A stretch of 64,000 nt of DNA, from assembly GCF_006345805.1 (NCBI RefSeq), contig NC_043004.1, positions 75,578,001 to 75,642,000 of the forward strand, written 5' to 3'. The first letter of the stretch is position 1, and each line of letters opens with the position of its first letter. The position numbers are program-made. This DNA comes from Octopus sinensis. Taxonomy: Eukaryota. Positions 29,001 through 32,000 of this stretch are shown piece by piece.

Positions 29001-32000
29001 AGTTGTTTGGACAACTTTCTGCATGCAATAATCTTTGCTCAGTCAGAGTTGGGCTGAGATTACATAACAACATGGATTAATGAAACTAAGTAAATATCCC
29101 AAAAATGACATTGCATTTTAACAGAATAAAGAATTAAATACCAACAAGTTAACACTATATTCAGTTTATTTTTTAATTTTCATTTACCAAAGATTTTTTG
29201 CTCTTTTAAAATAGATCTAAAAATCCAAACTTGTAAAGTGAATGAATAACAATAACTACTAAGAGAAAATAAACTGATCAATATTTCTTTGCTCCATGAG
29301 TTGGTGGGATAAATTAGAGCCAGTTGCCCAACCATTCATGGTCTGAAATAAGCATCACTAAATAAATCAAATCTGTTAACTTTTATCCAGAAAAATGCTG
29401 TAAATTATTCGCAACAACCAGGTGAAATTTATGCTAAATTGTTAAGTAATAAGGAAAGAGCCAGAAAACTAATGAAATACTAATTGTAGGGGTCAAATGC
29501 TAGATCACAAGTTAGTTTTCAAATCTTGGCTGTAACCATTTTGTTTCACTTATGGAGATAACGTCTTTGAGAAAGAACTGAGCATTATCACTTTCATTTC
29601 TACTCTCCTAAAATCTATGAATTCAAGAGAAACAGCCTCCTAGTCATGGATACCCGCTCTGATAAGGGGGTGGAGAGCAAACAACCAGCAGTTTATCATT
29701 CATATATGTAATACTGATCCCTTATATCAAGTGGCAAGCTGGCAGGAATGTTAGCATGCTGGGCTGGGCAAAATGCTTAGCTGTATTTCATGTTTTTACT
29801 TTCTGAGTTCAAATTCTGCTGGGGTATCCTTTCTGGGTCAATAAATTAAGTACCAGTTGCATACTGGAGTCAATCTAAATGACTGGCCCATCCCACAAAA
29901 ATTTCAGGGCAGAAAAGAATACTGAATCCTTACAGAATGATCCCTAGCAGTCAATAAACTATCATCACACAAATGGTCAAATAGATAATACAGATATAGT
30001 AAGGAAAAACGGACATTTAGCATCAATAAGAAGCTTCTGAGCAATTGGCTTTATTTTGAACATCCTCTGAAATTATTAAAACAAGGTCTTTACATATATA
30101 AAAAACTAGCAGTATCGCCCGGCGTTGCTCAGGTTTGTAAGGAAAATAACTATAAAGCATTTTTAGAGAGTTATAGCCAAAAAATGGAAAAAAATGATGG
30201 TAAATTTTTTTTGAGAGTAAAAAAAGGTGGAGTTGCGTCCCCCTAGACGGTTTGTGTTTCGGATTCTCGACCCCATGTCGAATTTATCGATTTTTTTCAG
30301 AACTGGGGGAACTTTTCAAAATTTTCGCTGCGTTAGTTTTGAATTATGACATTGGGCTATGTGTGTGTCAAGTTTCATCAGAATCGGTTGAAAGCCGTGG
30401 TCAGGGTGAGGGTACAAGCAAACAGACACACAGAAACACGCACAGACAAACTGCCGTTTATATAGAGAGAGATAAACTAAAAGTGAGTGTATAAAAGCAA
30501 ACACTGTTTTAAAAGAAAATAAATGCATAAAATTAAATATATTAAATTAGAAATTGAAAATATTTGTTTTATAACTGGAACAATGACAATGTTCAAAGAG
30601 CAATATAATTGAAAAATTAATTGTTTCAAAACTATTATAATTAGAAAAGGTTCCACTGGAGCCTTTTCTTAAATCTGTAAGAGACTTCAATAGCCTGCCT
30701 CTACAGTGAAAACAAACATGTGTCTGTGCGAGTGTGTTTCTTTGTTCCTGCTTTGTTAAACCTTTAGCATTCAGATTACTTTGTCCAATGTAATTTGAAA
30801 AATCGTTTAACATCCACGCTCCAATGCCGGCATGGATGGAACGGTTTGACAGGAGCTGGCCAGGCAGATGTCTGCACCAAACTTCTGTAACTGTTTTGGC
30901 GGGATTTTTACAGCTGGATGCCCTTCCCAACACCAACCACTCGACAGAGTGTGATTAAATAATATATATTTAATCGCATCTTTACACTTTTAGAAAAAGA
31001 ATATTTCACTCGGACGATCTTCCTCTCTTGAAAAACCTCTATGATGACAACCAGAAAATTGAACCCGAATACTATGTTCCCATTATTCCAATGATATTGG
31101 TGAATGGAACCGATGGCATTGGCACAGGATGGAGTACCAAAATACCTAACTATGATCCAAGAGAGATCATATCAAATATCAGGCGAATGTTGGCAGGAAA
31201 TGATCCTCTAAACATGGTGATTACTTTCACATCTTTTTGAGATTTCTCCCTCTTCTTAATTATATCTATTTTCCTATTTCTTTTTATGCAGCAGCATGTT
31301 TATGTCAATATCTCTTAACAACTTTAATAGCTAAGAGAACTTCAATTATGTACTACAGTTTATGGCTCCCATGATCGTGGCACGTAAAAAGCATCATTTG
31401 AGCGTGGTCGATGCCAGTGCCGGGCATCGTATCATTTACTATTCTGCTTACCAAAAGTGGCCCGCTTGGCACCGTGCATTCGTCACGTCGCAATGGCTGC
31501 GATATATGGAGTGGTTGGTGTTAGGAAGAGCATCAAGCTGTAGAAACCTTGCGAGATCAGATTGGAGCCTGGTGCAGCCTCCTGGCTTGCCAGTCCTCAG
31601 TCAAACCGTCGAAACCATGCCAGTATGGAAAGCAGCCGTTAAATGATGATGATGATGAAGATGGTGTGATTCTCCTATTATTAGAATGACTTTGTCGGGT
31701 AGGTGTGAGAGGTTGGATCTGGCCAGTTTGAACATAAAACAGGAAGCATAGGGCCCAATATGGCTGGATTGAATGCTTAATCATCATCATCATCATCATC
31801 ATCATCACCACCATTTAGCATCCGCTTTCCATGCTAGCATGGGTTGGATGGTTCAACTGGGGTTTGTGAAGCCAGAAGGCTGCATCAGGCCCAGTCTGAT
31901 CTGGCAGTGTTTCTACGGCTGGATGCCCTTCCTAACGCCAGGGTTGAATATTGCAATGAAGAATGCAAATAATAAAGCATTTGATATTTGAACTACATTT

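What the first reader, a model, noticed from the sequence alone, without database searches (positions are those of the whole stretch)
30993..31663. Antisense copy of a top2 core exon inside a later top2 intron: a built-in dsRNA partner
Seen: 30993-31663 is the reverse complement of about 52437-53082. The 224 exon nucleotides are identical by my reading. The unique intron part has one substitution. The SINE part has a 27-nt indel and about 7 substitutions clustered in the last 150 nt. Both copies lie in the same pre-mRNA about 21 kb apart, and the exon can still pair after upstream introns are spliced. Established: ADARs edit long exon-intron duplexes, coleoid cephalopods recode mRNA extensively by A-to-I editing, and inverted repeats promote exon skipping and back-splicing. 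Inference: this may be a newly formed editing-complementary sequence over the exon directly after the catalytic Tyr exon, or a source of circRNA or endo-siRNA.
Basis: partly seen in the sequence, partly recalled or inferred. Interest (0 to 1): 0.8.

Follow-up and report, generated by a model that had tools for sequence, protein, structure and literature searches.

The report
Antisense retrocopy of top2's own exon
An octopus-type topoisomerase II gene carries, backwards inside one of its later introns, a very young reverse-transcribed copy of part of its own partly spliced transcript, so the RNA could fold back on an essential exon, although nothing yet shows that this has any use.

Summary
Window 30993-31663 (+) is the reverse complement of 53082-52439. 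All 224 exon bases are identical, and the rest carries 9 substitutions and one 27-nt indel.

The gene is a topoisomerase II on the minus strand. The focal exon (53090-52859) directly follows the catalytic-Tyr exon. The copy lies in a canonical 6.6-kb intron nine exons downstream.

New result: the 15 nt left of the copy (30978-30992) equal the end of the preceding exon, so the 385-nt intron between the two exons is absent. The other end stops exactly at the (ATG)7 tail of an intronic SINE. The copy is therefore a 5'-truncated, semi-processed retrocopy of top2 pre-mRNA, primed at that SINE tail. It is neither a DNA duplication nor an assembly artefact.

Both copies carry derived changes, and the copy keeps 27 ancestral SINE bases that the parent later lost.

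The fold-back duplex is real on paper (-423 kcal/mol for the exon part). The exon part is no better conserved than the intron part (p = 0.38). Editing, siRNA and circRNA effects remain untested. Most likely this is a neutral or mildly harmful young insertion.

The parts
53476..53627 (-). top2 exon N-1, encoding ...[15 protein letters not shown] with the catalytic Tyr. It ends ...TATATCTTTACACTTTTAAG|gtatca.
   Evidence: tblastn with P0002 at 98%. PDB phmmer: query residues 2-50 align to 6zy5_B 762-810, which places Tyr at 805. Sequence read.
53091..53475 (-). Intron N-1 (385 nt). It is present in the parent locus and absent from the copy.
   Evidence: Sequence; junction analysis.
52859..53090 (-). 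Focal top2 exon N (232 nt; SVGKRIFHSDD...NDPLNM). Bases 53082-52859 are duplicated.
   Evidence: Translation. Pfam PF00521, E = 3.2e-24. PDB TOP2A 815-888 and TOP2B 836-907. Flanked by ttgcag| and |gtgatt.
52713..52858 (-). First 146 nt of intron N (unique sequence), duplicated with 1 substitution.
   Evidence: Alignment.
52439..52712 (-). Parent SINE in intron N, sense to the gene, ending in (ATG)7 at 52459-52439. It has lost 27 nt of the head unit.
   Evidence: Window self-BLAST, tail alignment, head alignment.
30978..30992 (+). 15 nt identical to the end of exon N-1 (53492-53478). This is the 5' end of the retrocopy and the trace of the removed intron N-1.
   Evidence: blastn-short hit, 100% over 15 nt. 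The 15-mer occurs once per strand in the window. Sequences read.
30993..31216 (+). Antisense (relative to the gene) copy of exon N lacking its first 8 nt; 224 of 224 identical. It is still followed by the exon's own 5' splice-site sequence.
   Evidence: tblastn hit 30965-31237.
31217..31362 (+). Copy of the first 146 nt of intron N.
31363..31663 (+). Copy of the SINE (301 nt, keeping the 27 ancestral nt), ending in the tail ATGx5-AAG-ATG at 31643-31663. Homology to the parent stops at the last tail unit.
28220..34849 (-). Host intron of top2 (6,630 nt; GTGAGT...ATATAG) between exon ~35039-34850 and the exon starting at 28219. The retrocopy sits about 3.2 kb from its 5' end.
   Evidence: tblastn with P0003 and P0005; splice-site context.
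31786..31940 (-). Neighbouring SINE tail module in the opposite orientation. It is predicted to form a local hairpin with the copy's SINE tail.
   Evidence: Self-BLAST at 79%. In the MFE fold of 32000-30600, 101 tail positions pair with the 31800-31949 bins.

Best explanation
The element at 30978-31663 is a young, 5'-truncated, semi-processed retrocopy of the gene's own transcript.

How it arose:
1. A top2 pre-mRNA had already lost the short intron N-1 (385 nt) but still held intron N.
2. A reverse transcriptase, most likely from a LINE, started at the (ATG)n tail of a sense-oriented SINE lying 147-446 nt into intron N.
3. It copied the RNA back through the SINE, 146 nt of intron and exon N.
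4. Copying continued 15 nt into exon N-1, ending just after the catalytic-Tyr codon.
5. The cDNA was inserted in antisense orientation into the 6.6-kb intron nine exons downstream.

Shown: the intron is missing, the 3' end coincides with the SINE tail, the 5' end is truncated, the copy lies in a top2 intron, and both copies changed independently afterwards.

Inferred: LINE-type priming at the SINE tail, and the consequence for the RNA. Every top2 pre-mRNA now carries a sequence able to pair perfectly with 239 nt of its own exons (15 + 224), or about 670 nt while intron N is still present. The most likely outcome is none, or low-level promiscuous ADAR editing or Dicer processing of a fraction of nascent transcripts. 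That makes it a neutral or slightly harmful young insertion, not an evolved editing guide.
For: Intron loss:
- 30978-30992 equals the reverse complement of 53492-53478, the end of exon N-1, and lies directly beside the exon-N copy.
- The 15-mer occurs once on each strand in 64 kb.

3' end:
- Homology stops at the last unit of a 7-unit ATG tail in both loci.
- Eleven other tail modules from the window were aligned. In 8 the same module ends in a GAT/ATG-type repeat run. The other 3 (t7649, t42076, t56139) end in other A/T-rich sequence or break off.

Same SINE insertion:
- Copy and parent share derived variants seen in none of those 11 tails (CAAGC, GAGATC, GGCCG).

A real, separate locus:
- Against the 11 outgroup tails, 5 changes are derived in the copy (31611, 31614, 31624, 31634, 31659) and 3 in the parent (52578, 52550, 52469).
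- The 27 nt kept by the copy match the head-unit consensus in 6 of 6 other head units.
- The window has no N.

Same transcription unit:
- Exons map on the minus strand from 63549 to 13365, and the host intron has canonical sites.

Active machinery:
- O. vulgaris is reported to hold recently active RTE, Dong-R4, CR1 and L1-Tx1 LINE families and 4,544 recent SINE insertions (PMC13282606, passages read).
- A potentially active RTE LINE is reported in octopus (PMC9115989, passages read).

No sign of selection:
- 0 of 239 exon-derived against 1 of 146 intron-derived differences, p = 0.38.

Duplex potential:
- -423 kcal/mol for the 224-nt part and -1222.6 kcal/mol for the whole.
- Locally, the antisense exon is engaged only in ordinary weak structure, with mean pairing probability 0.64.
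Against: - The exon-exon junction is not canonical. It is 10 nt short, lacking the last AG of exon N-1 and TTCGGTTG of exon N. No GT-AG alternative explains this, so a small deletion or a template slip must be added.
- No clean target-site duplication abuts both ends. The only candidate, GTGTGATT (30950-30957 and 31664-31671), lies 20 nt from the 5' junction and is matched or beaten in 87 of 5000 shuffles.
- A retrocopy landing 21.6 kb from its source, in the same gene, is very improbable for random integration and is unexplained.
- No LINE ORF lies in the window, so the partner LINE is not identified.
- Substitutions are concentrated in the SINE tail: 8 of 157 against 1 of 502, p = 6.5e-5. 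CpG content does not explain this: the head and middle have 12 CpG and no change.
- The functional part of the statement rests on no RNA data.
Confidence: 0.7

Rival explanations
1. This is a functional, newly born editing-complementary sequence or self-regulatory dsRNA. The antisense copy pairs with the exon in the nascent RNA. It then recruits ADAR (recoding or hyper-editing), Dicer (endo-siRNAs against top2) or the back-splicing machinery, and this regulates TOP2.
For: - Perfect complementarity over 224 nt plus 15 nt, at -423 kcal/mol.
- Both arms lie in one pre-mRNA.
- The exon arm holds 81 A, of which 62 would recode.
- An adjacent SINE/SINE hairpin is predicted. Long neighbouring stems are reported to raise editing efficiency (PMC5654063, search listing and start of abstract only).
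- Young repeats are reported as the main ADAR targets across metazoans (PMC9989829, passages read).
- Cephalopods edit extensively (PMC5705066, passages read).
Against: - The exon-complementary part shows no conservation signal (p = 0.38).
- The element is very young, with 1 difference in 385 nt of non-SINE sequence.
- The arms lie 21.6 kb apart and are separated by nine introns.
- A perfect long duplex is expected to give promiscuous rather than selective editing of an essential enzyme (recalled general knowledge, not from a call).
- The differences between the copies show no A>G bias, so this is not an edited-RNA fossil.
- The search for octopus + RNA editing + topoisomerase + recoding returned 0 papers. 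Supplementary site tables could not be read.
Confidence: 0.12
2. This is a DNA-level inverted duplication. Replication template switching or break-induced repair made several jumps, one of which inserted 15 nt from exon N-1.
For: - It is local (21.6 kb) and inverted, as replication-based rearrangements usually are.
- It lacks a clear target-site duplication.
- The 5' junction is irregular.
- The breakpoint lies at a microsatellite.
Against: - It needs three breakpoints that happen to fall 2 nt from an exon's 3' end, 8 nt from the next exon's 5' end, and exactly at the last unit of a SINE tail.
- The 385-nt intron is skipped as a unit.
Confidence: 0.07
3. This is an assembly artefact, such as a misplaced haplotig or a wrong gap fill.
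For: - The host intron is SINE-rich.
- Differences are concentrated in the repeat part, where consensus errors are most likely.
- No reads were available.
Against: - No N occurs anywhere in the 64-kb window.
- A misplaced genomic allele would carry intron N-1, and the copy does not.
- The copy keeps 27 ancestral nt that the parent lacks.
- Its derived variants occur nowhere else in the window.
Confidence: 0.04

Closest known systems
5'-transducing non-autonomous retrotransposons carrying spliced host exons (human SVA_F1 with MAST2 exon 1; chimpanzee pt_SVA_D6 with STK40 exon 1). PMC6139936, passages read.
   Same: A non-autonomous element at the 3' end supplies the site where reverse transcription starts. 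Host sequence upstream of it, including spliced exon material, is carried along. The copy is 5'-truncated.
   Different: - Here the carrier is a short cephalopod SINE with an (ATG)n tail, not an SVA with poly(A).
- The exon is joined to the SINE through retained intron sequence, not spliced onto it.
- Only one copy is known.
- It landed antisense inside the donor gene.
- Whether it spawned a subfamily could not be tested.
Semi-processed (partly spliced) retrocopies, for example rodent Ins1. This example is recalled and was not seen in any call. The general retrocopy review PMC5408686 was read in passages.
   Same: One intron is removed and another retained, so the template was a partly processed pre-mRNA.
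   Different: - It is a 686-nt fragment, not a gene copy.
- There is no poly(A).
- It lies in its own parental gene. The passages shown speak only of retrocopies nested in introns of other genes.
ADAR editing-complementary sequences (GluA2 Q/R and R/G, Drosophila Syt1). PMC5705066, passages read.
   Same: An intronic sequence complementary to a coding exon of the same pre-mRNA.
   Different: - Known ECSs are conserved, lie close to the exon (recalled) and form imperfect duplexes that direct site-selective editing (recalled).
- This one is perfect, 21.6 kb away and young, with no conservation signal and no editing data.
Hairpin-RNA and pseudogene-derived endo-siRNA loci. Drosophila hpRNAs: PMC10317233, search listing and start of abstract only. 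Mouse oocyte pseudogene siRNAs: recalled.
   Same: An inverted copy of a protein-coding gene's sequence provides dsRNA against that gene.
   Different: Those loci are separate transcription units with both arms adjacent. Here one arm is the working exon itself and the other lies in an intron of the same transcript. No small-RNA data exist.

Membership tests
Retrocopy (RNA-derived copy) | An intron is absent at an exon-exon junction. | tested here: met
   15 nt of the exon N-1 end abut the exon-N copy, and the 385-nt intron N-1 is missing. Caveat: the junction is 10 nt short of the canonical one.
Retrocopy (RNA-derived copy) | The 3' end lies at a tail used for priming reverse transcription (poly(A) or a LINE/SINE-type simple repeat). 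| tested here: met
   Homology ends at the last unit of the (ATG)7 tail of the SINE.
Retrocopy (RNA-derived copy) | Target-site duplication flanks the insert. | tested here: inconclusive
   The only candidate is GTGTGATT, 20 nt from the 5' junction; 87 of 5000 shuffles reach 8 nt or more.
Retrocopy (RNA-derived copy) | 5' truncation. | tested here: met
   The copy starts 17 nt before the end of exon N-1, and nothing further upstream matches.
5'-transducing SINE/SVA-type element | Several offspring copies share the transduced sequence. | not testable with these tools
   No cephalopod genome collection was available. Within the window only this one copy exists.
ADAR editing-complementary sequence | It is complementary to an exon of the same pre-mRNA. 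| tested here: met
   224 of 224 nt complementary. The copy lies in intron 34849-28220 of the same gene.
ADAR editing-complementary sequence | A-to-I editing of the paired exon is observed. | not testable with these tools
   No RNA data. 0 papers for octopus + RNA editing + topoisomerase + recoding. Supplementary tables were closed.
ADAR editing-complementary sequence | The complementary element is conserved in evolution. | tested here: not met
   Within the element there is no excess conservation of the exon-complementary part (0/239 vs 1/146, p = 0.38) and the copy is very young. Cross-species presence could not be tested.
DNA-level inverted segmental duplication | The copy is colinear with genomic source DNA, introns included. 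| tested here: not met
   Intron N-1 is absent.
Assembly artefact (misplaced allele or gap fill) | It is flanked by gaps, or identical to source genomic sequence apart from allelic differences. | tested here: not met
   The window has no N. The copy has a spliced junction and keeps 27 ancestral nt. Read-level support was not testable.
Type II DNA topoisomerase (host gene) | A TOP2 DNA-gate domain with the catalytic Tyr motif. | tested here: met
   PF00521, E = 3.2e-24. PDB TOP2A/B hits at E about 1e-28 and 1e-24. 97% identity to O. bimaculoides XP_014790219.1 on the focal exon.

The most novel reading that the evidence does not exclude
This is the birth of an exon-complementary intronic element, caught early. 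The nascent top2 transcript is still tethered to the gene. A reverse transcriptase primes at an intronic SINE tail and copies that transcript back into the same gene, which would explain the otherwise improbable same-gene landing. The resulting perfect 239-nt exon:intron duplex is used in vivo and gives measurable hyper-editing, with up to 62 recoding adenosines, or endo-siRNAs against an essential enzyme. That would show one route by which editing-complementary sequences or self-targeting hairpins arise.
Probability: 0.15. Interest if true: 0.75.

Novelty: new variant of a known kind. Interest (0 to 1): 0.5.

Why it matters
It is a natural experiment in a heavily editing animal. An essential, single-copy enzyme gene has recently acquired a perfect antisense partner for a core exon, and the age and mode of origin of that partner can be read from the sequence.

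If the insertion is polymorphic, carriers and non-carriers would show directly what a new long exon:intron duplex does to editing, splicing, small RNAs and expression. This bears on how editing-complementary sequences and hairpin-RNA loci begin.

It also documents, outside primates, an intronic SINE carrying spliced host exons by 5' transduction. Finally, it raises the question of whether nascent RNA can be retro-inserted in cis. If none of this holds, it is one more young retro-insertion in a repeat-rich intron.

Tried and rejected
- **Rfam:** gathering-threshold scan of the whole window gave 0 matches.
- **ARAGORN:** no tRNA-like head in the SINE; the single call at 46594-46670 lies elsewhere.
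- **Partner LINE or plus-strand gene:** 12 stop-to-stop ORFs of 130 aa or more were inspected by eye. None looked like a reverse transcriptase or endonuclease.
- **Target-site duplication:** inconclusive.
- **Empty-site paralogue:** alignment of the flanking 'C' repeat family was tried. C begins at about 31664, but no copy reconstructs the pre-insertion site.
- **Edited-RNA footprint:** rejected. The 5 changes derived in the copy are C>G, C>A, C>T, G>A and T>A, with no A>G.
- **CpG decay as the cause of the tail excess:** rejected. The head and middle have 12 CpG and 0 changes; the tail has 4 CpG and 8 changes.
- **Conversion from the neighbouring inverted SINE arm or another in-window SINE:** rejected for 31611, 31614 and 31624. 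The motifs occur only in the copy, and the neighbour arm (t31940) has the consensus state at all three.
- **Independent SINE insertions at the two loci:** rejected because of shared unique variants.
- **Other exon copies in the window:** of 24 exon segments, only the focal exon has a long second copy.
- **Literature:** 0 papers for inverted duplication + exon + intron + ADAR + hyper-editing + origin of editing, and 0 for octopus + RNA editing + topoisomerase + recoding. The passages returned by my term search in the retrocopy review describe no retrocopy in its own parental gene.
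Full report
**Observation.** The inverted repeat is real. The repeat finder lists arms 30990-31380 / 52695-53085 (391 nt, 99%) and 31399-31672 / 52430-52703 (274 nt, 95%). A global alignment pairs copy 30993-31663 (671 nt) with the reverse complement of 53082-52439 (644 nt).
- The exon-derived 224 nt are identical.
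- The unique intron part (146 nt) has one substitution (31247 T / 52828 C).
- The SINE part has a 27-nt indel, 7 substitutions between 31524 and 31634, and one in the microsatellite tail (31659).

**Gene context.** I did not build or search a joined spliced model. The focal exon was searched on its own, and the other exons were located by running whole homologous proteins against the window.
- The focal exon (53090-52859, minus strand, 232 nt) translates to SVGKRIFHSDD...NDPLNM.
- It matches Pfam DNA_topoisoIV (E = 3.2e-24) and human TOP2A residues 815-888 and TOP2B 836-907 in solved structures.
- The best named database relative is O. bimaculoides XP_014790219.1, at 97% over the exon. The window therefore comes from an octopus-like genome but is not identical to that record.
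- tblastn with that protein, with two unnamed cephalopod-like full-length TOP2 proteins (P0003, P0005) and with two named gastropod ones places exons on the minus strand from 63549 down to 13365.
- The exon just upstream (53627-53476) encodes ...[15 protein letters not shown]. Its Tyr aligns with position 805 of chain 6zy5_B. That Tyr805 is the catalytic residue of human TOP2A is recalled, not taken from a call.
- Downstream of the focal exon come nine exons (49705 ... ~35039-34850). Then comes an intron from 34849 to 28220 with GTGAGT and ATATAG ends, which holds the copy.
- The copy is therefore antisense to the gene, 21.6 kb downstream of the exon it matches, and inside the same transcription unit.

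**The decisive detail.** A short-word search of the 70 nt left of the copy found that 30978-30992 (ATCTTTACACTTTTA) is 100% identical to the reverse complement of 53492-53478.
- That stretch is the end of the catalytic-Tyr exon, which reads ...TATATCTTTACACTTTTAAG|gtatca.
- The 15-mer occurs once on each strand in the window.
- It directly abuts the first base of the exon-N copy.
- The 385-nt intron N-1 (53475-53091) is therefore missing from the copy, while intron N is retained.

A DNA duplication or a misplaced genomic allele would carry that intron. A copy made from partly spliced RNA would not.

The junction is not perfect. Compared with the canonical exon-exon join, it lacks 10 nt: AG from exon N-1 and TTCGGTTG from exon N. 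No alternative GT-AG pair explains this. I take it as a small deletion or template slip and leave it unexplained.

**The 3' end.** Self-BLAST of the window shows that 31363-31663 is a SINE. It has a head unit of about 60 nt, a variable middle, and a tail module of about 155 nt that recurs about 35 times in the window.
- Eleven other tail modules were aligned. In 8 of them the module ends in a GAT/ATG-type repeat run. The other 3 (t7649, t42076, t56139) end in other A/T-rich sequence or break off.
- Homology between copy and parent stops at the last of seven tail units in both loci.
- It does not extend into the sequence after the parent SINE.
- The two SINEs share variants absent from the 11 other tails aligned, so they are the same insertion copied once, not two independent SINEs.

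The copy thus runs from a SINE tail, through the SINE, the intron and exon N, across a spliced junction, to a truncated end in exon N-1. This is the anatomy expected if a LINE-type reverse transcriptase starts on a SINE tail embedded in a host pre-mRNA. That LINEs recognise the shared 3' ends of SINEs is recalled (Okada and colleagues, cited in PMC3531059, whose passages I read).

Octopus genomes are reported to hold recently active RTE, Dong-R4, CR1 and L1-Tx1 LINEs and thousands of recent SINE insertions (PMC13282606, passages; PMC9115989, passages).

**Age and reality of the locus.** I used 11 other tail modules as an outgroup.
- Five differences are derived in the copy: 31611 C>G, 31614 C>A, 31624 C>T, 31634 G>A and 31659 T>A.
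- Three are derived in the parent: 52578 G>T, 52550 C>T and 52469 C>T.
- The 27 nt present only in the copy match the head-unit consensus in 6 of 6 other head units. The parent therefore suffered a deletion after the copy was made.
- Non-SINE sequence differs at 1 of 385 positions.

Both loci have changed independently. Together with the spliced junction and the absence of gaps, this makes an assembly artefact unlikely, although no reads were available.

The differences are unevenly spread: 8 of 157 in the tail module against 1 of 502 elsewhere (Fisher p = 6.5e-5).
- CpG content does not explain this.
- Copying from the neighbouring arm or another in-window SINE does not explain it either.
- Four of the copy's changes lie within 24 nt and may be a single event.

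This unevenness remains unexplained.

**Weak points of the retrocopy reading.**
- No target-site duplication abuts the ends. The only candidate, GTGTGATT at 30950-30957 and 31664-31671, lies 20 nt from the 5' junction and is matched in 87 of 5000 shuffles.
- No LINE ORF is in the window.
- A random retro-insertion would almost never land 21.6 kb from its source. Either this is a coincidence among many copies elsewhere, which I could not check, or nascent RNA still at the gene was used in cis. The second option is speculation.

**What it may do.** In the pre-mRNA the copy reads as the antisense of 239 exon nucleotides.
- RNAduplex energy is -423 kcal/mol for the 224-nt part and -1222.6 kcal/mol for the full arms while intron N is unspliced.
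- In a 1.4-kb local fold, the copy's SINE tail pairs with the oppositely oriented SINE at 31786-31940. The antisense exon has only ordinary weak local structure, with mean pairing probability 0.64, so it is not sequestered.
- The exon arm holds 81 adenosines, and 62 of them would change the amino acid if read as G.
- Reviews state that ADAR substrates are mostly young repeat-derived duplexes (PMC9989829, passages). They also state that cephalopods edit coding sequence extensively, with conserved flanks thought to form the structures (PMC5705066, passages).

Against an evolved role:
- The exon-complementary part is not better conserved than the intron part (0/239 vs 1/146, p = 0.38).
- The element is very young.
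- The arms are far apart.
- A perfect long duplex would be expected to edit promiscuously (recalled).

My best reading is a neutral or mildly harmful young insertion with latent dsRNA potential.

**Comparison with known systems.**
- It works like the 5'-transduction groups of primate SVA elements that carry spliced host exons (PMC6139936, passages).
- It also resembles semi-processed retrocopies (recalled).
- It differs in its carrier (a short SINE with an ATG-repeat tail), in retaining intron sequence between exon and SINE, and in landing antisense in its own parent gene.
- In the passages returned by my term search in a retrocopy review, I saw only retrocopies nested in other genes.
- It meets the structural criterion of an editing-complementary sequence but not the conservation criterion. 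Editing itself is untested.

**Left unchecked.**
- Presence in other individuals or species, and other copies in the genome.
- Read support for the junctions.
- All RNA-level effects.
- Supplementary tables of cephalopod editing papers, which may list top2 sites.

Noticed in passing
window 26425-26455 (minus strand; possibly to about 26461): A 31-nt stretch in a later intron, in sense orientation, matches the start of the focal exon at 27 of 31 positions (E about 2e-5). It shares TTAGAAAAAG with the copy rather than the exon's TTGGAAAAAG. It belongs to no repeat family in the window. It may be chance or the remnant of an older fragment.
   Followed up: partly
window 30029-30085 (minus strand): The last 19 residues of the O. 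bimaculoides RefSeq model XP_014790219.1 (1296 aa) map here, inside the same intron as the copy, at 79% identity. The model lacks the seven C-terminal-domain exon matches that P0003 places at 35039-13365 (P0005 matches six of them). This is either an alternative terminal exon giving a truncated TOP2 or a faulty model.
   Followed up: partly
window 56153-56694; also 16301-16547, 37558-37732 and 48676-48799: The SINE head unit of about 65 nt occurs as tandem arrays of up to about 9 units upstream of tail modules. These arrays create spurious open frames of 182-185 aa.
   Followed up: no
window 31507-31663 vs 52595-52439: Substitutions between copy and parent are concentrated in the SINE tail module (8 of 157 vs 1 of 502, p = 6.5e-5). 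Four lie within 24 nt in the copy. CpG content and in-window donors do not explain this.
   Followed up: yes
window 31664-31780; also 52268-52375, 28514-28634, 28414-28474, 23415-23492 and 47934-47991: A further repeat family of about 115 nt ('C') starts right at the copy's 3' junction. It also lies about 60 nt beyond the parent SINE tail, in the opposite relative orientation. It is unclassified.
   Followed up: partly
window 46594-46670 (+): ARAGORN calls a tRNA-Ser (gga) lying between the arms of a short inverted repeat (46527-46599 / 46683-46755). Rfam gave no match at gathering threshold. It is probably a tRNA-derived repeat or a false call.
   Followed up: no
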